Below are positions 30,404-37,026 of a stretch of 64,000 nucleotides of DNA, in pieces. How positions within the stretch are numbered: position 1 is the stretch's first letter; each line of letters starts with the position of its first letter. A program made the position numbers and the translations under genes. A model generated the notes under the pieces. It searched no databases and was not told where the DNA came from. It saw only the letters and a program-made list of their open reading frames with translations. Source of the stretch: Methyloligellaceae bacterium (GTDB lineage Bacteria; Pseudomonadota; Alphaproteobacteria; Rhizobiales; CBDCYM01); the NCBI GenBank assembly GCA_965224165.1, contig CBDCYM010000011.1, positions 1,522,877 through 1,586,876 of the forward strand, read 5' to 3'.

Positions 30404-31279
30404 TCAGGACGCAAATAAATAGTCTCTATACTCAGCGAAATCGGATTTAGCCGAACCACACCAAAACAAACTTGGCCAATTCACTAAGTACAGACAATTT
30501 TCACTCATAAATGACTCAATTTCTGGCTCAATCTCATCAACATTAGCGTTTTCTGCTTCCCTCAAGTTGAGGGCAATAATATTGCCGGAAACGTCTACTT
30601 GCCCCCACAACAACCAACCTGATTGCGTCTCAAGCGCAAAACCGTTGACTATAGCTGCCGCAATATTATTGAAAGCCACGCCAGAGAAAGTCCTTTTAAT
30701 TGAAAAAAGATGTTTTATCCGGTCAAAATGGAGGAACTTATCACGAAGAGGCTCTTTTATTATTTTTCGCACATGTATTTGATTAAAACCAATACCTTCT
30801 CTGTGATTTTCATATATCGACTTAATCGCTTTCATTTCCTCGTCAATTGATGAGTTAAAACTGTTGGATATAAACTCAAATTGCCTCCAATCATCTTCTA
30901 AAACAATCAAGGCATCTTCCAATGATATTTTGGCCTCCTTAACTGCTGCGATGTCATCATTTATCGTAGGCAAACTGAACAAGACTGTATTCGGGTCAAT
31001 ATCAAGGATTTCAACCTTTACGAGGGATAATTTTAGATTTCCGGATTTTATGAATTCAGATTTCTTCGGCGGCGATGCATTCAGAACACGCCAATCCTGA
31101 TCCGCCAAATTTATTGTCGTTTGAATTTCGAAGGTATCTGGAAGATCATCTACGGCAATGTTTGATACGGCAAACGGTTGAGAATTATCCCCCTCAAAAA
31201 ATTCTACTTTTATTTCATTCGGATTATTTTTAGATTCAAACATGACAGCTCCAAAAGTCAGGCATTCATAATTAAACAA
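30404..31279 (-). CDS. hypothetical acidic protein, 291 aa, AT-rich (GC clearly below the surrounding genes)
   Basis: Long clean ORF convergent with 29520..30386. Asp/Glu/Asn-rich. No recognisable domain. Confidence 0.45.
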   Translation of the reverse strand: MFNYECLTFGAVMFESKNNPNEIKVEFFEGDNSQPFAVSNIAVDDLPDTFEIQTTINLADQDWRVLNASPPKKSEFIKSGNLKLSLVKVEILDIDPNTVLFSLPTINDDIAAVKEAKISLEDALIVLEDDWRQFEFISNSFNSSIDEEMKAIKSIYENHREGIGFNQIHVRKIIKEPLRDKFLHFDRIKHLFSIKRTFSGVAFNNIAAAIVNGFALETQSGWLLWGQVDVSGNIIALNLREAENANVDEIEPEIESFMSENCLYLVNWPSLFWCGSAKSDFAEYRDYLFAS

Positions 31280-31412: not shown

Positions 31413-32588
31413 CTAGCGATCTTCTTCACTTGAGGAAGCCTGATCATCTTCTTGCCTCGGTGCTTTTTCAAGGTGCAAGAGGTTATGGAGAAGACTGTCG
31501 AAACCTCGGGCTTCACCACCTGTGACCAGCTTGATCTTACCGACCTTTTCGGTCAGCTTCTCAAGCGCTTCAATTTCTTTCAGACGCAAGAGTAATGGAT
31601 TGTTTTCCATAAGCCGTGCTGTATTGAGCAGTGAGCGCGTGGCGGCTGTTTCTTCGCGGCGGCGGATCAGATTAGCTTGTGCCACCTTTTCCGCTTCTAC
31701 GACCTTGTTAATCAACTCACGCATCTCGCCGGGAAGGATAATGTCCTTCAAGCCAAGCTCGTTGACCGAGACACCTATGTCACCTAGATGCACGTCGACA
31801 TAGGTGCGAACTTGGTTGTCAACAGTCTCACGGTTATTCAGGATCTGATCGAGAGTGCGTGTCGATACGGCTTCCCGCACCGCAAACTGAGTAAGGCGAT
31901 AGATATATGTTGCATAATCAGATGTTTCCTGAACGGCCTTTTCAGGATGCGTCACCTGCGTAAAGGCTGTCAGTGTCACACGCAGTGAGACGCGGTCTTT
32001 GGTCAGGATTTCTTGCGCTGTAATTTCATGCGGGATCGGACGCAGATCTAGTGTCTCCACGCGCACTTGATGATGCACAGCCCAAAAAGCATGCCGGCCG
32101 GGGTCGAGCTCTTCCTTGAGTTCGCCATCGACAAAGAGGAGGCCGGCCTCATGCTGGTTAACCGTCACATCTTGAACAAGAGTCGTCGTGCTGGTCTGGA
32201 TCGCATTCAGATCTTCTTTTTCCACCTTGATGTCTTTTGACGTATCGATCATCTTGACCGTTACGGTGTTCAATGCTTTCCAAAAGACTCGCTTTTTCCA
32301 TGGGCCCATTAAATGAGTAGGCACACCGTCAAATGAGACAATGGCGACCTCGCCTTCACCTGTTTGAACGATTTCAAAATGTTCCTCGGCAATATCAGGA
32401 TGGTTCTTTTCAATAACGGTTGCTATCGCTTCGGGTACTTCGGCCTTCAGGACTGAATGGCGATCAATTTCAATTTTTTGCGAAAAATTAGCAAAACGAT
32501 AACGTCCCGGGCCAAGCACCCGGCTGAATTTTCCATTCTCAAACAAAAAGGCGCGTTCACCTTCGCGCACTGTAACGACGCGGTACAT
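31413..32588 (-). CDS. SPFH/band-7 (stomatin/flotillin-like) domain protein with an about 190-aa N-terminal region of unknown function
   Basis: C-terminal half shows SPFH-like features (…ILTKDRVSLRVTLTAFTQV…ILPGEMRELINKVVEAEKVAQANLIRRREE…) followed by a coiled coil. No TM helix is apparent. Confidence 0.65.
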   Translation of the reverse strand: MYRVVTVREGERAFLFENGKFSRVLGPGRYRFANFSQKIEIDRHSVLKAEVPEAIATVIEKNHPDIAEEHFEIVQTGEGEVAIVSFDGVPTHLMGPWKKRVFWKALNTVTVKMIDTSKDIKVEKEDLNAIQTSTTTLVQDVTVNQHEAGLLFVDGELKEELDPGRHAFWAVHHQVRVETLDLRPIPHEITAQEILTKDRVSLRVTLTAFTQVTHPEKAVQETSDYATYIYRLTQFAVREAVSTRTLDQILNNRETVDNQVRTYVDVHLGDIGVSVNELGLKDIILPGEMRELINKVVEAEKVAQANLIRRREETAATRSLLNTARLMENNPLLLRLKEIEALEKLTEKVGKIKLVTGGEARGFDSLLHNLLHLEKAPRQEDDQASSSEEDR

Positions 32589-32939
32589 CGGTCTATCCTA
32601 AAAACTTTTTATTTCGAGTTGAGCCATCTGGCTCACCTACCAATCACAATCAAAAGTCTTGGAGGACTGGATGGCTACCGATTTCGACGAAAACGGAAGC
32701 AATCCAACTGCATGATATGAAGCAATCCAACTGCATGATATTATGTGACAAAAGGTAGCGGCAGGTACGCGTGCTGTGTGGCGAAATAATGGCCTTAAGC
32801 AAAAAAACTGTTGTATGGATTGATAATATCTATTTTTCTTCATCTAATATCTGATCAAAATAACTCCCACCTGTTAAATGAGCCCAAGAACTTGGGCGGC
32901 AAGGATTTTATATTGATCCCTTGAGTTGAGGTTATTGCA

Positions 32940-33232
32940 CTTTCCTAAACAGGTCACCGGAGGCTTGACCTCGACACGTCATGTGCGGGCCCTTGCTTGA
33001 GGTGCTGCGAGCCCGCCCGCGCCACAAGCACCGCGAGACGAACGCACTCTGGGGCCCGAAGGCCCAGAGCCGCTCATCCGGCAGACCTGTGCGCCAGGCT
33101 TCGCGCAGCACCGGTATCCGCAAGGGCACAAAGCCCATGTCGTGCCTGCCACAATCCGGGTACTCATTTTGGCCGAAGCCGCCACGAGCACCTATCATGT
33201 GGCGTGAGCCCAAACCTCCGGCTCCCCAATAA
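32940..33232 (-). ncRNA. candidate structured ncRNA of about 290 nt. It is GC-rich with two C(UUCG)G tetraloop hairpins on the - strand. Its identity is unknown.
   Basis: GC is about 64% against a local 45-50%. No protein-like ORF is present; the six-frame ORFs here are Arg/Pro-rich and overlap on both strands. On the - strand there are hairpins gggcc-TTCG-ggccc and ggc-TTCG-gcc. The ends are complementary (gccggagg … cctccggt). Confidence 0.35.
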
Positions 33233-33279
33233 GTATTTGAGCCAGATTATCAGTCTGGTCCAGGTTATGAGCCTGGTCG

Positions 33280-33351
33280 ATCAGATAGAAGGAATCGAAC
33301 CTTCGTCCCATTGGGGGAAACCCAATTGCTCTACCTCTGAGCTATATCCGA
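33280..33351 (-). tRNA. tRNA-like cloverleaf, 72 nt, with an aberrant anticodon arm (6-bp stem with a 5-nt loop, or loop GUUUCCC reading UUC). Possibly a tRNA pseudogene or tRNA-derived element.
   Basis: Reverse complement is TCGGATATAGCTCAGAGGTAGAGCAATTGGGTTTCCCCCAATGGGACGAAGGTTCGATTCCTTCTATCTGAT. D-arm and T-arm are canonical (TAGCTCAGAGGTAGAGC; GAAGGTTCGATTCCTTC). The acceptor stem has a G3·U70 wobble and no CCA is encoded. The anticodon loop is not a canonical 7-nt loop with a purine at position 37. Confidence 0.4.
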
Positions 33352-33605
33352 GTGGCGGATCGGCACTGGAACACGGCATCCGCAGCGCGGCCCGCGCCGG
33401 AGAGGTCTCAGCGAGCCCCAACCAAAGTGCGACAATCCACCAACAGGTCTAGCTGATAAAGTAGCAAAAGCAAAGCCGCCTCTTGCACAAAAGTCCGTAC
33501 CATGCGACCAAAATAGAGGTTTAGGAGAGAGATTCGCGGATGCAGCGCAGTTGGTACCTTCTACGAAAGTCGTCATTGCGACCGAGCATTTTAGATGTGC
33601 TATCG

Positions 33606-33664
33606 GCTAACGCCTACTTGAGCACTTGATATTTTGTGCTAACGGCCAGCGCCTACTTGAGCAC
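33606..33664. repeat. Direct repeat of gctaacg…cgcctacttgagcac (perfect 15-mer at 33611-33625 and 33650-33664) in the parE upstream region
   Basis: Read directly from the sequence, about 150 bp upstream of the parE start. Confidence 0.5.
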
Positions 33665-33806
33665 AAGTGAGCGTGGCAATCCAGATGTGAGGCAAATCAA
33701 GCCTAAAACAGGATTGCGTCGTCGGCTAAAGCCTCCTCGCAATGACGGGGAATCTATTTCGTGGAGAAATCCGGTTAGGAGTAACGCTGTCTAAGATGAT
33801 GAGACG

Positions 33807-35840
33807 ATGGGAAAAGTAGGCGATCTTTTCGCAAGATTAGAAGAAAAAATGGAACAAGCTCCGATCAGCCGCCGCGGGTCGAAAAAAGGCCGGGAGGGTG
33901 AAGCAAAATATACGGCTGCCGATATTGAGGTGCTCGAAGGGCTGGAACCCGTGCGCCGCCGTCCTGGCATGTATATTGGTGGCACGGATGAAAAGGCGCT
34001 GCATCATCTCTTTGCCGAAGTTATCGATAATTCCATGGATGAAGCCGTTGCCGGGCATGCGAGTTGGATTGAGGTTGCGTTGGACAAAGACGGCTGGTTG
34101 ACGGTAACGGACAATGGCCGGGGTATTCCTGTTGACCCTCATCCAAAATATAAAAAGAAATCCGCTCTTGAAGTCATTATGACCACGCTGCATGCAGGCG
34201 GAAAATTCAACTCTAAGGTTTATGACACATCAGGCGGTTTGCATGGCGTTGGCGTTTCGGTGGTCAATGCCCTTTCCGAAAAGCTTGAGGTTGAGGTTGC
34301 GCGCGATAAGCAGCTTTACCGGCAAATCTACAGTCGTGGCAAACCGCAAGGAGCGCTTAAAAAGCTAGGATCTATAAAGAATCGCCGTGGTACCAAAATC
34401 CGCTTCAAACCGGATGAGAAAATCTTCGGCAAAAAAGCGGCTTTTAAGCCTTCGCGATTATTCCGCATGGCGCGATCCAAAGCCTATCTCTTCGGCGGTG
34501 TGGAAATTCGTTGGTCCTGTGCGCCAAGCCTCATTGACGCGAAAGATGAGACACCGCCGCAAGCGGTTTTTCATTTTCCGGGAGGTCTAAAGGACTTCTT
34601 GGCGTCGCGCATTGAAGGGCGGACATATGTTGCCCGCGATGCTTTCTTTGGCAAACACAACCAGGATGGCGGTCATGGTTCCGTGGAATGGGCCATCGCT
34701 TGGATTGGCGATGCGGACGGCTTTTTAAACTCTTATTGTAACACTGTGCCGACGGCTGACGGCGGCACGCATGAAGCCGGATTGCGCGCTGCTCTCACCA
34801 AAGGGTTGAGGGCCTATGGTGAGCTAACGGGCAATAAAAAGGCGGCGCAGATAACGGCTGATGACGTTTTGTCTTCCGCTGCGGCTATGCTCTCAGTTTT
34901 CATTCGGGAACCAGAGTTTCAAGGCCAAACAAAGGATAAACTCGCCACGCAGGAGGCGGCTCGTATTGTCGAGAGCACGCTGCGCGATGCATTTGATCAT
35001 TGGCTGACGGCGAGCCCTCAGCAAGCGAACAAACTCTTGGAATGGGTTATTGACCGCTCAGAAGAACGCCTGCGCCGCCGTCGCGAAAAAGAAGTAAACC
35101 GTAAAACCGCGGCCCGCAAACTGCGTCTGCCTGGGAAACTTGCTGATTGTTCAAAGTCGGCAAAGGATGGAACGGAAATTTTTATCGTTGAGGGGGACTC
35201 AGCTGGTGGTTCAGCCAAACAGGCGCGCAATCGTGCGACCCAAGCCGTCTTGCCTCTGCGTGGCAAAATTCTAAACGTTGCCAATGCCAGCTCCGCCAAG
35301 CTTGCGCAAAACCAGCTTTTGTCGGACCTCATTCAGGCTTTGGGCTGTGGAATGGGAACAAGTTACCGGGATGATGATTTGCGCTACGAGAAGGTTATCA
35401 TCATGACCGACGCCGATGTGGACGGTGCCCATATTGCGTCTCTACTCATCACCTTTTTTTACCGGCAAATGCCGGAACTCATCGAAAATGGCCATCTTTA
35501 TCTAGCCGTGCCGCCGCTTTATAAAATTACGCAAGGCGCTAAATCGGTCTATGCCCGTGATGATGCGCACAAAGATAGTTTGCTTGAGAGCGATTTTACA
35601 GGGCGCGGTAAGATCGAAATTTCCCGCTTTAAAGGCCTTGGTGAAATGATGCCGGCCCAGCTTAAAGAAACCACCATGAATCCGGAGACGCGCATTCTGC
35701 TTCGTGTTGAAGTGGATGAAGATGATCGCACCCAAACCTCAAAAGCAGTTGATCAACTTATGGGAAATAAGCCGGAAGCGCGCTTTAAGTTTATCCAGGA
35801 CAATGCTGAATATGTCAGTGGTGAGGAGCTGGATATTTAA
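33807..35840 (+). CDS. parE: DNA topoisomerase IV subunit B
   Basis: GHKL ATPase, TOPRIM and GyrB C-terminal motifs. The 677-aa length is the ParE size (short against GyrB, about 800 aa). Confidence 0.88.
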   Translation: MGKVGDLFARLEEKMEQAPISRRGSKKGREGEAKYTAADIEVLEGLEPVRRRPGMYIGGTDEKALHHLFAEVIDNSMDEAVAGHASWIEVALDKDGWLTVTDNGRGIPVDPHPKYKKKSALEVIMTTLHAGGKFNSKVYDTSGGLHGVGVSVVNALSEKLEVEVARDKQLYRQIYSRGKPQGALKKLGSIKNRRGTKIRFKPDEKIFGKKAAFKPSRLFRMARSKAYLFGGVEIRWSCAPSLIDAKDETPPQAVFHFPGGLKDFLASRIEGRTYVARDAFFGKHNQDGGHGSVEWAIAWIGDADGFLNSYCNTVPTADGGTHEAGLRAALTKGLRAYGELTGNKKAAQITADDVLSSAAAMLSVFIREPEFQGQTKDKLATQEAARIVESTLRDAFDHWLTASPQQANKLLEWVIDRSEERLRRRREKEVNRKTAARKLRLPGKLADCSKSAKDGTEIFIVEGDSAGGSAKQARNRATQAVLPLRGKILNVANASSAKLAQNQLLSDLIQALGCGMGTSYRDDDLRYEKVIIMTDADVDGAHIASLLITFFYRQMPELIENGHLYLAVPPLYKITQGAKSVYARDDAHKDSLLESDFTGRGKIEISRFKGLGEMMPAQLKETTMNPETRILLRVEVDEDDRTQTSKAVDQLMGNKPEARFKFIQDNAEYVSGEELDI

Positions 35841-36209
35841 CTACTGGCTCTCCGGCCCTCTATAGACGCATCCCTCCTGACAAGAATCGCGCGACACTGC
35901 AATTTCAGCTAAGCCAGGGAATTCACCTTCAAGCCTCTTCCATAGCCACTTGGTAATGTGCTCCAAAGTCGGGAGTTCAAGCCCTGGAATATCGTTTAGG
36001 TAGCGATGGTCAAGCTCTGCACGAGCCTTGTTCAACGCTTTGGTCATCTCATCGAAATGCACAATAACACCGGTTTCAGGGTCCGGTTCACCATCAATGG
36101 TAACGCGCACGCGGAATGAGTGCCCATGCATCCGGGCATTGGGATGGCCTTCCGCGGCGGTTGGCAGCAAATGGGCCGCCTCAATATGAAATTCCTTATA
36201 GATACGCAT
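35841..36209 (-). CDS. queD: 6-carboxy-5,6,7,8-tetrahydropterin synthase
   Basis: Begins MRIYKEFHIEAAHLLP… with the Zn-binding His/Glu pattern of QueD. Start taken at the internal Met of ORF 35841..36269. Confidence 0.85.
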   Translation of the reverse strand: MRIYKEFHIEAAHLLPTAAEGHPNARMHGHSFRVRVTIDGEPDPETGVIVHFDEMTKALNKARAELDHRYLNDIPGLELPTLEHITKWLWKRLEGEFPGLAEIAVSRDSCQEGCVYRGPESQ

Positions 36210-36372
36210 GGAATGCTCTTTATGCGATTTTTGCGTCCGCGTCACCCTGGCAAATTTACGCAATGACATTTATAAGACGGCAATAATCTTAGCTTATGAG
36301 CTAATGTTATAGGGTCTTGCGGACTAAGTCCTATTTGCCCGTTTCACAATTGGACGTTATTGCTGTCTGGCA

Positions 36373-37026
36373 TTACGCAATGCCGATGAGCTTATGGGTC
36401 TGCAGGCTTAAACGCCATTGGGGATGCGCAAGGCAATAGCGGATTGCAACACGGGTATTCTCTTCTTTTAAGGCGTTATCCATCGGCTGCAAAAAGAAAT
36501 GATCAAAGCTCAACGCGCTCACTTCTTCGGGGCTTATACCATCTTGAGGGTAAACAAGCTTAAGTTCATTGCCGGATGTTTGAACAAGGTCTGCTCCTGC
36601 TTTCGGGCTCACGCAAATCCAATCAATGTCACGGGGAACAGGCAATGTCCCGTTTGTCTCAATGGCAATCTCGAATCCGACGTCATGAAGGGCGGTAATC
36701 AGCTTTTCGTCAATCTGTAACATTGGCTCACCGCCAGTGAGGACGACAAAGGGCGTACCCGGCCGATCATCCCATATGTTTTTACATGCCAAAGCTAAAT
36801 CTTGGGCCGCCTTAAATTGACCACCACCCGGTCCGTCCGTGCCAACAAAATCCGTATCACAAAACGAGCAGACGGCACCTTCACGGTCTTCCTCCCGGCC
36901 TGACCAAAGATTGCATCCCGCGAAGCGACAGAATACTGCCGACCGGCCTGTATTGGCCCCTTCACCTTGCAAGGTATGATAGATTTCTTTGACTGAGTAC
37001 ATATTCTGAAACTGCAACAACCTCAC
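36373..37026 (-). CDS. queE: 7-carboxy-7-deazaguanine synthase (radical SAM); the true start may be the Met at 37002
   Basis: …LQGEGANTGRSAVFCRFAGCNLWSG… with the QueE-type Cys cluster, about 210 aa, immediately upstream of queD on the same strand. Confidence 0.8.
   Translation of the reverse strand: MRLLQFQNMYSVKEIYHTLQGEGANTGRSAVFCRFAGCNLWSGREEDREGAVCSFCDTDFVGTDGPGGGQFKAAQDLALACKNIWDDRPGTPFVVLTGGEPMLQIDEKLITALHDVGFEIAIETNGTLPVPRDIDWICVSPKAGADLVQTSGNELKLVYPQDGISPEEVSALSFDHFFLQPMDNALKEENTRVAIRYCLAHPQWRLSLQTHKLIGIA

What the first reader, a model, noticed from the sequence alone, without database searches (positions are those of the whole stretch)
32940..33232. About 290-nt GC-rich non-coding block with two C(UUCG)G tetraloops: candidate structured ncRNA, identity unresolved
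Between the SPFH gene and parE there are 1.2 kb without a credible ORF. Within it, 32940-33232 is about 64% GC against about 45-50% around it. Its six-frame translations are low-complexity Arg/Pro strings on both strands. On the - strand it contains two canonical C(UUCG)G hairpins (gggcc-TTCG-ggccc and ggc-TTCG-gcc) and complementary termini (gccggagg … cctccggt) that would close a terminal helix. I checked for RNase P (GGAAAGUCCGGGCUCC and ACAGAACCCGGCUUA), SRP RNA and a tmRNA tag (ANDN…LAA) and could not match any of them. It may therefore be an unclassified RNA. It lies immediately downstream (on the - strand) of a tRNA-like cloverleaf, so the two could be one transcription unit.
Basis: seen in the sequence. 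Interest (0 to 1): 0.65.

Follow-up and report, generated by a model that had tools for sequence, protein, structure and literature searches.

The report
New tRNA-linked structured RNA family
The GC-rich block is the 3' two-thirds of a roughly 490-nt, previously unclassified structured RNA (two 5' hairpins, an embedded tRNA look-alike, two anticodon-arm-like hairpins and a long rod); it recurs, with abundant compensatory base changes, just upstream of a membrane-anchor-less slipin (SPFH) gene in many Hyphomicrobiales-type bacteria, and its function is unknown.

Summary
Window 32940-33232 has 64% GC and is the most GC-rich 293-nt stretch in the 64-kb window. Its minus strand folds into a long rod (-174.6 kcal/mol, z = -7). 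The block is only part of the feature. Minus-strand 33419-32950 contains hairpins P1 and P2, a tRNA cloverleaf with a non-canonical anticodon loop, two hairpins with 7-nt loops, and a 278-nt rod.

The same composite RNA lies upstream, on the same strand, of slipin/SPFH homologs (49-71% amino-acid identity) in 10 of 12 lineages examined. Flanking genes differ between lineages. On five sequences, 90.8% of pair cells are paired (34-44% with slid partners), and 48 of 117 pairs carry double substitutions (0 of 500 shuffles reach this). Thirteen percent of paired cells are G·U, which fixes the strand.

Rfam 15 matches only the tRNA module, in the window and in homologs. ARAGORN finds no tmRNA. The tRNA module keeps its body while its "anticodon" varies or degenerates, so it is not a decoder.

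My best reading is a new ncRNA family with its own promoter, probably cut at the tRNA-like modules by RNase P/Z, and functionally tied to the slipin gene. The mechanism is inferred, not shown.

The parts
33446..33474 (-). Promoter-like site for the RNA: -35 TTTGCT (33474-33469), 17-nt spacer, -10 TAGACC (33451-33446). The predicted transcription start is near 33439, about 20 nt before P1.
   Evidence: Read from the sequence. An equivalent -35/-10 pair lies at about the same distance before P1 in most homologs, for example TCGACA-N17-TATAGG in L081-83, TTGACT-N17-TATCAG in L109 and TTGACG-N17-TATCAA in L105; none was convincing in L095. This is inferred only. The E. coli-style scan did not call it.
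33402..33419 (-). P1 hairpin, GGGGCUC-GCU-GAGACCUC.
   Evidence: A hairpin is present at this position in all 11 aligned lineages, with different sequences (for example CCGGGUUUUAAAAGCCUGG and UCAGGUUAUGAAUACCUGA). Five of its 9 pairs show double changes.
33368..33400 (-). P2 hairpin: outer helix GGCGCGG/CCGUGUU with three conserved G·U pairs, and inner hairpin CCGC-NNU-GCGG.
   Evidence: The G·U pairs are kept in 10-11 of 11 sequences, with CG<->UA and CG<->GC compensatory changes. This segment gave the first cross-locus BLAST match.
33280..33351 (-). tRNA-like module 1: a full cloverleaf with G3·U70. Its anticodon loop GUUUCCC is non-canonical (C at position 37), and no CCA is encoded (UCGA instead).
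   Evidence: Infernal tRNA score 58.5 bits; ARAGORN calls it 'Glu ttc'. In homologs the body is conserved but the anticodon is GUG, CAU, CAG or UAG, a shortened loop, or a GAAA tetraloop.
33260..33276 (-). Hairpin A: CCAGG-CUCAUAA-CCUGG, 5 bp with a 7-nt loop. It occupies the position where some homologs carry a complete second tRNA-like module.
   Evidence: Three of its 5 pairs show double changes (helix 8). L095, L081-84 and L106 have a second tRNA or tRNA-like module at this position (a full cloverleaf called by ARAGORN/Infernal in L081-84 and L095; in L106 read from the sequence only).
33242..33258 (-). Hairpin B: CCAGA-CUGAUAA-UCUGG, an anticodon-arm-like hairpin.
   Evidence: It is present in all lineages, with a loop of CUGAUAA, CUGUUAA or CUGAAAA type. 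Two pairs show double changes.
32950..33227 (-). It has a basal helix GGG..GCCGGAGG/CCUCCGG..CCU and a side branch capped by UUCG (33183-33171). Its conserved core comprises GUGCCCUUGC/GCAAGGGC, the invariant GGAUACCG (33119-33112), CCUCAAGC...GCCCGC (33002-32985) and the 3' GACCU. The distal part, capped by the second UUCG (33069-33047), is variable.
   Evidence: The core helices are conserved in 10 sequences, with 20 of 28 pairs showing double changes. Helices 10-19 are analysed. The invariant motifs are visible.
32876..32897 (-). Possible weak terminator: GCCCAAG-UUC-UUGGGC followed by UCAUUU.
   Evidence: Read from the sequence. The terminator scan did not call it, and it is not conserved in homologs. 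This is inferred only.
31413..32588 (-). Slipin/SPFH gene (391 aa), the conserved downstream partner. It has two N-terminal beta domains, an SPFH domain and a long helix. It has no transmembrane segment and a pI of 5.6.
   Evidence: Pfam Band_7 E = 7e-34. The AlphaFold model has pLDDT 81. Stomatin, HflK and prohibitin are the best structural matches. The RNA lies upstream of homologs in 10 of 12 lineages.

Best explanation
This is a single-copy gene for a previously unclassified composite structured RNA of about 490 nt, on the minus strand from about 33439 to about 32950.

Shown here: the RNA runs 5' domain (P1 + P2), one or two tRNA-shaped modules, one or two anticodon-arm-like hairpins, then a long rod with a conserved core and a variable tip. 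It is strand-specific, maintained by purifying selection on base pairing, and genetically coupled to a membrane-anchor-less slipin (SPFH) gene directly downstream on the same strand.

Inferred: it is transcribed from its own sigma-70-type promoter. The tRNA-shaped modules are not decoders. They act as structural or processing modules, recognised by RNase P at their 5' side and by RNase Z or 3' trimming at their mostly encoded RCCA end. The primary transcript would then be cut into a roughly 80-nt 5' fragment, free tRNA-like RNA(s), and a roughly 300-nt rod RNA. The rod either stays at the 5' end of the slipin mRNA or acts with the slipin protein.
For: 1. The structure is real. The minus strand folds to -174.6 kcal/mol, z = -7.0, against z = -2.7 for the plus strand.
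2. Homologs were found by synteny in 10 of 12 slipin lineages (49-71% protein identity) whose other neighbours are unrelated.
3. Covariation is strong: 117 pairs, 90.8% of cells paired against 34-44% with slid partners, and 48 pairs with double changes against 9-17 (slid) and 22.9 +/- 3.1 (shuffled, 0 of 500). The core rod helices hold in 10 sequences and P2 holds in 11.
4. 75 of 575 pair cells are G·U, which would be C·A on the other strand. The tRNA orientation agrees with this strand.
5. No Rfam family matches any part except the tRNA, in the window or in nine homolog loci. There is no tmRNA.
6. The tRNA module is not a decoder. Its body is conserved while the anticodon is UUC-like, GUG, CAU, CAG or UAG. 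Leu- and Ser-type anticodons sit on short-variable-arm bodies. The loop is aberrant in the window, shortened in L095 and replaced by a GAAA tetraloop in L106. The acceptor, T and D arms persist, and RCCA persists in most.
7. A promoter-like site lies at a conserved distance before P1.
8. The element is single-copy in the window and absent from 80 parE loci and from viral, phage and plasmid collections.
Against: - There are no expression data, so ends, processing and abundance are all inferred.
- The window's own tRNA module lacks the encoded CCA and has a weak -10 (TAGACC).
- Two slipin orthologs (L090, L094) have no such RNA upstream, so the protein does not strictly need a cis-linked copy.
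- The slipin protein is acidic (pI 5.6) and has no recognisable RNA-binding domain, which argues against direct RNA binding.
- The alignment holds about 10 lineages only. Shuffle controls ignore phylogeny, although the slid controls do not.
- I could not scan genomes for copies unlinked to slipin genes.
Confidence: 0.6

Rival explanations
1. The RNA is purely a cis-acting 5' leader. The whole 490-nt structure would be the regulatory 5' UTR of the slipin mRNA, acting as a sensor, an attenuator or a stability element. The tRNA-like and anticodon-arm-like hairpins would serve as binding sites for a tRNA-binding protein or as RNase P entry sites that set mRNA half-life.
For: The RNA is always upstream of the same gene family, on the same strand, while all other neighbours vary. 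The spacer to the start codon is only about 85-100 nt in L088, L091 and L095, with no obvious terminator. In those loci the only convincing conserved promoter-like site lies before P1.
Against: In the window the spacer is 360 nt, with a terminator-like hairpin and a tandem repeat. L106 and L109 have about 200-350 nt spacers with other repeats. No conserved expression platform that sequesters the RBS or terminates transcription was found. The size and ornate conserved core exceed any known leader. Two orthologous slipin genes lack it.
Confidence: 0.22
2. The tRNA module is an alanine-accepting tRNA mimic, either tmRNA-like or a deliberate mistranslator. After processing it would be charged by AlaRS through G3·U70/A73/CCA. 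AlaRS ignores the anticodon, which would explain why the anticodon drifts. The rod and 5' domain would be partner or chaperone RNAs.
For: G3·U70 is present in module 1 of the window, L088, L091, L095 and L106. A73 plus CCA is encoded in L088, L091 and L095 (and the sequences). The anticodon is free to vary or degenerate. From my own knowledge: G3·U70 is the AlaRS determinant and is the one used by tmRNA, and the L082 first module carries a UUUGCAC loop like tRNA-Ala(UGC).
Against: L087 and L105 have A3-U70 with mismatched top pairs. The window and L105 lack CCA (sequence). There is no tag reading frame and ARAGORN makes no tmRNA call. G·U to A-U is a single transition, so the pattern may simply reflect ancestry from a tRNA-Ala gene. 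Charging is untested.
Confidence: 0.1
3. These are ordinary tRNA gene(s) followed by a structured 3' trailer. The cloverleaf would be a working decoding tRNA, and the GC-rich rod would be a transcribed spacer or terminator region.
For: Infernal tRNA scores are high, 48-71 bits. Canonical 7-nt anticodon loops with U33 and A37 occur in L087, L088, L091 and L105.
Against: The window's loop is GUUUCCC. L095 and L106 have no usable anticodon loop. The same body carries His, Met, Leu and Glu-type anticodons, and Leu/Ser anticodons sit on class-I bodies without a long variable arm. The rod and 5' domain show conservation and covariation well beyond a spacer.
Confidence: 0.04
4. The element is a known RNA too divergent for Rfam (RNase P, SRP, 6S, two-piece tmRNA), or a DNA-level element such as a MITE, an inverted repeat or a decayed high-GC pseudogene.
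For: The rod shape superficially resembles 6S or SRP RNA. Alphaproteobacteria have permuted tmRNA genes. A REP/MITE-like element lies 220 nt away.
Against: No hit to any of these families appears at E<=10, either in the window or in nine homolog loci. The element is single-copy. No DNA-level inverted repeat was detected for the rod. Thirteen percent of pairs are G·U, and stability differs between strands by 50 kcal/mol. Translated matches occur in all frames. There are no Pfam hits.
Confidence: 0.03

Closest known systems
GOLLD RNA (Rfam RF01998), and more loosely ROOL
   Same: Both are large ornate bacterial ncRNAs of unknown function with a 5' domain and a 3' domain. In GOLLD, tRNAs are sometimes embedded in the linker between the domains, and the gene is often next to tRNAs (PMC12286853). 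Here one or two tRNA-shaped modules always sit between a 5' domain and a 3' domain.
   Different: There is no sequence or structure match to the GOLLD or ROOL models. This RNA is smaller (about 490 nt against more than 800 nt). Its context is chromosomal alphaproteobacterial loci next to a slipin gene, not phage or prophage, and nothing was found in viral contigs. Its 3' domain is a rod rather than a multi-pseudoknot fold. Oligomerisation is untested.
tmRNA (including the two-piece alphaproteobacterial form)
   Same: Both combine a tRNA-shaped module with an acceptor that in most members looks like an alanine acceptor (G3·U70, A73, CCA) and does not use an anticodon, joined to a larger structured RNA. 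The host clade has permuted ssrA genes.
   Different: Here the tRNA module is a complete closed cloverleaf with its own anticodon arm. There is no tag ORF, resume codon or pseudoknot ring. ARAGORN and the Rfam tmRNA models do not match. G3·U70 is not universal.
Bacterial Y RNA / YrlA (the Ro60-Rsr system)
   Same: Both are ncRNAs that combine a long stem with a tRNA-mimicking domain, encoded next to the protein they work with (PMC4201824, listed).
   Different: There is no Ro60/TROVE, RtcB or RtcA gene within about 4 kb. The only Y RNA model hit is a sub-threshold T-arm match (21 bits, E = 0.26). This RNA is four times larger. In YrlA the long stem replaces the anticodon arm, whereas here the cloverleaf is closed.
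tRNA-punctuated transcripts (the E. coli tRNA-tufB operon; MALAT1-mascRNA; plant t-elements)
   Same: In these, tRNA or tRNA-like structures embedded in a longer transcript are used by RNase P/Z to define the ends of flanking RNAs. That is the mechanism I infer here. This comparison rests on my own knowledge.
   Different: In those cases the flanking RNA is an mRNA or a eukaryotic lncRNA. Here the flanks are themselves conserved, covarying structured domains, and the tRNA modules have lost decoding features.

Membership tests
tRNA (RF00005), functional decoder | Cloverleaf with acceptor, D, anticodon and T arms that scores above the Rfam gathering threshold | tested here: met
   58.5 bits against a gathering score of 29 in the window; 48-71 bits in homologs.
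tRNA (RF00005), functional decoder | Canonical 7-nt anticodon loop (U33, purine 37) and an anticodon consistent with the body's identity elements, conserved among orthologs | tested here: not met
   The window loop is GUUUCCC. L095 has a shortened loop and L106 a GAAA tetraloop. Orthologous bodies carry GUG, CAU, CAG and UAG. Leu and Ser anticodons sit on bodies without a long variable arm.
tmRNA (one-piece or permuted) | tRNA-like domain plus a tag-peptide reading frame and pseudoknots, detectable by ARAGORN or the Rfam tmRNA clan | tested here: not met
   ARAGORN finds tRNAs only. No tmRNA-clan hit appears at E<=10 in the window. The only such hit is a 10.6-bit beta_tmRNA fragment over a T arm in L106.
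RNase P RNA, SRP RNA, 6S RNA | Match to the corresponding covariance models or their conserved core motifs | tested here: not met
   No hit appears at gathering or at E<=10 over 32600-33900 on both strands, and none at E<=0.1 in 7 homolog loci.
GOLLD / ROOL / OLE / raiA / HEARO (large ornate bacterial ncRNAs) | Match to the family covariance model | tested here: not met
   No hits. The only resemblance to GOLLD is architectural: tRNAs lie between two domains.
GOLLD / ROOL | Phage or prophage context | tested here: not met
   No relative of the slipin gene or of the RNA motifs was found in IMG/VR, and there is no phage-record match beyond the tRNA part. Neighbouring genes are housekeeping or metabolic.
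Bacterial Y RNA / YrlA | Encoded next to rsr (Ro60, TROVE domain), with a Ro-binding stem carrying the conserved bulged helix | tested here: not met
   Genes within about 4 kb are DUF4846, an unknown ORF, SPFH, ParE, QueD and a radical-SAM protein. There is no Y RNA model hit in the window.
MITE / REP-type DNA repeat | Multi-copy, with DNA-level terminal inverted repeats and equal stability on both strands | tested here: not met
   The element is single-copy in the 64-kb window and absent from about 100 other loci not selected on the slipin gene. No inverted repeat was reported for the rod. The two strands differ by 50 kcal/mol, and 13% of pairs are G·U.
Riboswitch / cis-regulatory leader | Consistent position upstream of one gene family | tested here: met
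   Found in 10 of 12 slipin lineages, on the same strand, 85-360 nt before the start codon.
Riboswitch / cis-regulatory leader | A conserved expression platform (terminator/antiterminator or RBS sequestration) coupled to the aptamer, and ligand binding | tested here: inconclusive
   No conserved terminator or RBS-pairing element was seen between the rod and the start codon. No systematic search was done, and ligand binding is not testable here.

The most novel reading that the evidence does not exclude
The RNA and the anchor-less slipin may form a bacterial ribonucleoprotein cage. The slipin has N-terminal beta repeats, an SPFH 'shoulder' and a long cap-like helix, and its only full-length structural matches are to major vault protein. 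Alternatively the RNA could self-assemble like GOLLD or ROOL, displaying or enclosing its covalently linked, alanine-acceptor-like tRNA mimics. Either case would be a new kind of bacterial RNP or RNA compartment tied to tRNA biology.
Probability: 0.08. Interest if true: 0.95.

Novelty: categorically new. Interest (0 to 1): 0.8.

Why it matters
Large (over 400 nt), highly structured bacterial ncRNAs of unknown function are rare; OLE, GOLLD, ROOL, raiA and HEARO are the main examples, and each has opened new biology. This candidate adds an alphaproteobacterial class with an unusual architecture: tRNA-shaped modules that have lost decoding but keep an acceptor end, which is alanine-like in most members, are wired between two conserved structured domains. 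It also has a clean genetic handle, because it is a two-gene unit with a soluble SPFH/slipin protein whose own function is unknown. It therefore offers a direct experimental route both to a new RNA function and to the role of non-membrane SPFH proteins. It also warns annotators that the "tRNA-Glu", "tRNA-His", "tRNA-Leu" and similar genes called at these loci are probably not decoding tRNAs.

Tried and rejected
- Synteny through parE: 80 alphaproteobacterial parE loci (61-78% identity) contain no nucleotide homolog and no Rfam RNA upstream of parE. The element is therefore not parE-linked.
- BLASTN of 32880-33420 against plasmid and phage records matched only the tRNA part.
- Exact-protein look-ups of the window's own SPFH and ParE proteins failed.
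- Viral contigs: a P1/P2 pattern gave 0 hits. The slipin protein gave 0 relatives. A looser P2 pattern gave 120 chance hits, none confirmed by the family HMM.
- Coding hypothesis: rejected.
- Defence-system hypothesis: no PADLOC hit for the slipin or the neighbouring ORF.
- A T-box-like 'specifier' complementary to the variable anticodon, kissing between the 7-nt loops, pairing of the invariant GGAUACCG with the P2 strand CGUGUUCC, and pairing of the 5' leader with the 3' tail (GCACUUU/AAAGUGC in the window only) were all examined by eye. None was conserved.
- Literature searches for an SPFH/stomatin-linked tRNA-like RNA found nothing.
Full report
**1. The observation**

Window 32940-33232 is 64.2% GC. 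The mean for 293-nt stretches in this window is 47.8% (sd 4.6), and this is the most GC-rich stretch of that length in the 64 kb.

On the minus strand it carries the two C(UUCG)G hairpins (33183-33171 and 33069-33047) and the complementary ends GCCGGAGG...CCUCCGG.

The minus strand of 32930-33240 folds into an almost continuous rod with one side branch. The MFE is -174.6 kcal/mol against -130.9 +/- 6.2 for dinucleotide shuffles (z = -7.0). The plus strand reaches only -124 kcal/mol (z = -2.7).

The 1218-nt gap between the SPFH gene (31413-32588, minus strand) and parE (33807-35840, plus strand) holds no credible ORF. The four ORFs inside the block have no Pfam hit. Their translated similarity to homologous loci appears in several frames and on both strands, which is what nucleotide-level conservation produces.

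**2. Known families**

A cmscan of the whole window against Rfam 15 finds only two tRNAs. One is the cloverleaf at 33351-33280, directly 5' of the block (58.5 bits). A permissive scan of 32600-33900 at E<=10 adds only noise. ARAGORN sees no tmRNA.

The cloverleaf itself is odd. Its anticodon loop reads GUUUCCC, with C at position 37, and no CCA follows it.

**3. Finding relatives**

The ParE protein places the window in the Hyphomicrobiales-type Alphaproteobacteria (best match 78%, a Methyloceanibacter MAG). None of 80 parE loci contains anything similar, and none of the 15 scanned with Rfam has an RNA family upstream of parE. Plasmid and phage records match only the tRNA part.

The breakthrough came from the other neighbour. 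Metagenomic loci encoding SPFH homologs only 49-51% identical also carry a tRNA about 430 nt upstream on the same strand, plus a 54-60-nt segment matching window 33420-33367.

I then fetched the genomic context of closer and more distant SPFH homologs and searched with a family HMM. The same composite element lies upstream of the SPFH gene in the window, L081-83, L084, L087, L088, L091, L095, L105, L106 and L109. That is ten lineages, with protein identity to the window of 49-71%. It is absent upstream of two orthologs, L090 and L094. Genes on either side of the RNA-SPFH pair differ in every lineage.

The element is single-copy in the window and absent from all loci not selected on the slipin gene. 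It is also absent from viral contigs.

**4. Anatomy (minus strand)**

| Feature | Coordinates | Notes |
|---|---|---|
| Promoter-like site | -35 at 33474-33469, -10 at 33451-33446 | TTTGCT-N17-TAGACC. Equivalent sites lie at about the same distance in most homologs, several much closer to consensus, such as TTGACT-N17-TATCAG in L109. |
| P1 hairpin | 33419-33402 | Present in all aligned lineages with different sequences. |
| P2 | 33400-33368 | Outer helix GGCGCGG/CCGUGUU keeps three G·U pairs in 10-11 of 11 sequences. |
| tRNA-like module 1 | 33351-33280 | Full cloverleaf, non-canonical anticodon loop. |
| Hairpin A | 33276-33260 | In L081-84, L095 and L106 a second tRNA or tRNA-like module occupies this position (a full cloverleaf in L081-84 and L095). 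|
| Hairpin B | 33258-33242 | Anticodon-arm-like, loop CUGAUAA. |
| Possible weak terminator | 32897-32876 | Not conserved. |

Within the rod, the following are conserved in all ten aligned sequences: the basal helix, the helices flanking an internal junction, and the motifs GGAUACCG (33119-33112), CUCAA, GCCCGC and the 3' GACCU. The distal part of the rod and the tip of the side branch vary in length and sequence. Both UUCG loops sit in these variable parts, and L088 and L091 lack them.

**5. Is the structure selected?**

RNAalifold on four sequences, and then on five, predicts 104 and 117 pairs. Of these, 44 and 46 carry compensatory double changes.

Counting the 117-pair structure on the five-sequence alignment gives:

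| Measure | Observed | Partners slid 1-3 columns | Column shuffles |
|---|---|---|---|
| Pair cells forming a standard pair | 90.8% | 33.6-43.6% | 80.2 +/- 0.9% (0 of 500 reach it) |
| Pairs with changes on both sides | 48 | 9-17 | 22.9 +/- 3.1 (0 of 500 reach it) |

The rod core holds in ten sequences, with 20 of 28 pairs showing double changes.

Seventy-five of the 575 pair cells are G·U. On the opposite strand they would be C·A, and pairing would drop to 77.7%. Together with the tRNA orientation and the 50 kcal/mol strand asymmetry, this fixes the RNA on the slipin-coding strand.

Two caveats apply. There are only about ten lineages, and the shuffle control ignores phylogeny. The slid control does not have that weakness.

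**6. The tRNA-shaped modules**

Infernal scores them at 48-71 bits, but they do not behave like decoders.

- In module 1 the body (GGAUAUAGCUCAG.GGUAGAGCA...GGUUCGAUUCC...UAUCU) is conserved. The 'anticodon' is GUG (L087), CAU (L088), CAG (L091) or UAG (L105).
- The loop is aberrant in the window, shortened in L095, and replaced by a 4-bp stem with a GAAA tetraloop in L106.
- In the second module of L081-84 the anticodon is UGU, GAU, GGU or GCU on nearly identical bodies.
- Leu- and Ser-type anticodons sit on bodies without a long variable arm.

What persists is the acceptor, T and D arms and, in most lineages, an encoded RCCA. These are the features bacterial RNase P and the 3'-end machinery recognise (established knowledge, not tested here).

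Module 1 also has G3·U70 in five of seven lineages, with A73 and CCA in three of them. That set is the alanine identity set used by tmRNA. L087 and L105 have A3-U70, so I treat this as a lead and not a finding.

**7. The partner protein**

The 391-aa protein has a Band_7/SPFH domain. The AlphaFold model is confident (pLDDT 81) and shows two N-terminal beta domains, the SPFH domain and a roughly 60-residue helix.

The protein has no hydrophobic segment and is acidic, with pI 5.6. It gives no PADLOC hit, and its only NCBIfam matches are sub-threshold HflK/HflC hits. Nothing marks it as an RNA-binding protein.

**8. Interpretation**

Shown: a conserved, strand-specific, single-copy composite structured RNA of about 490 nt that belongs to no Rfam family and is genetically coupled to an anchor-less slipin gene.

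Inferred:
- It has its own promoter.
- The tRNA-shaped modules serve as RNase P/Z processing or structural modules that separate a 5' domain from a 3' rod.
- The RNA and the slipin gene act in one pathway, either because the rod remains on the slipin mRNA or because the two products cooperate.

The main rival is that the whole element is a giant cis-regulatory leader. Position supports this, but there is no visible expression platform, and the spacers are variable and sometimes long.

Other readings:
- An alanine-charged tmRNA-like or mistranslating tRNA mimic is possible but weakly supported.
- An ordinary tRNA gene with a trailer, a divergent housekeeping RNA, a MITE and a pseudogene are each contradicted by specific tests (section 2).

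**9. Comparison and novelty**

The nearest architectural precedent is GOLLD, whose linker between a variable 5' region and a conserved 3' region sometimes contains tRNAs (PMC12286853). There is no model match, and both the context and the fold type differ.

tmRNA and YrlA share the idea of a tRNA mimic fused to a larger RNA, but their defining features were tested here and not met.

Six full-text literature searches for an SPFH/stomatin-linked or alphaproteobacterial tRNA-like RNA found no description. The library does not cover subscription journals, so an earlier description cannot be fully excluded.

I rate it as a new RNA class. The reality of the conserved structure is near-certain. The mechanism is only moderately supported.

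Noticed in passing
window 33572-33746: A roughly 175-bp element bounded by perfect 10-nt inverted repeats (GTCATTGCGA / TCGCAATGAC). It contains two 29-30-nt direct repeats, each itself partly palindromic (33597-33625 and 33636-33664). It lies between the parE start and the RNA's promoter. A related motif, GTCATTGCGAGGAGGC..AGCCGACGA.GCAATCC, occurs between the RNA and the slipin gene in L106-L108. It looks like a REP/MITE-type repeat of this clade.
   Followed up: partly
window 32696-32741: A perfect tandem duplication of a 23-nt unit (GAAGCAATCCAACTGCATGATAT x2), about 110 nt upstream of the slipin start codon. It could be an operator or a recent slippage event. It is not present in homologous loci.
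   Followed up: no
window 30404-31279 (minus strand): A 291-aa ORF directly downstream of the slipin gene, in a distinctly AT-rich stretch (GC 0.35-0.39 against 0.48). It has no Pfam, NCBIfam or PADLOC match and is not conserved next to slipin genes elsewhere. It looks foreign.
   Followed up: partly
tRNA-like modules in L087 3496-3570, L088 3572-3646, L091 3547-3621, L105 1124-1196, L095 2535-2677, L081-84, L109 2469-2543: tRNA finders label these orthologous modules His, Met, Leu, Leu, Glu+Asn, Thr/Ile/Thr/Ser and SeC respectively. Genome annotations will therefore carry spurious, mutually inconsistent tRNA genes at this locus.
   Followed up: yes
L105 5216-5829 and L106 6199-7182: A TraG/VirD4-type coupling-protein gene lies 2.4 kb downstream of the RNA-slipin pair in L105, and a Mu-transposase C-domain gene lies 2 kb downstream in L106. 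This hints that in some genomes the pair sits at or near mobile DNA.
   Followed up: no
window 35841-37026 (minus strand): A 6-pyruvoyl-tetrahydropterin-synthase-family (PTPS) gene and a radical-SAM gene, possibly the queuosine-precursor genes queD and queE, lie just beyond parE. They are tRNA-modification genes, but their proximity to the tRNA-like RNA is not conserved in other lineages, so it is probably coincidental.
   Followed up: no
L087 5726-5802 (minus strand): A sub-threshold match (34 bits against a gathering score of 59.8, E = 0.001) to the Brucella sRNA CI27 model, downstream of the slipin gene in the closest homologous locus.
   Followed up: no
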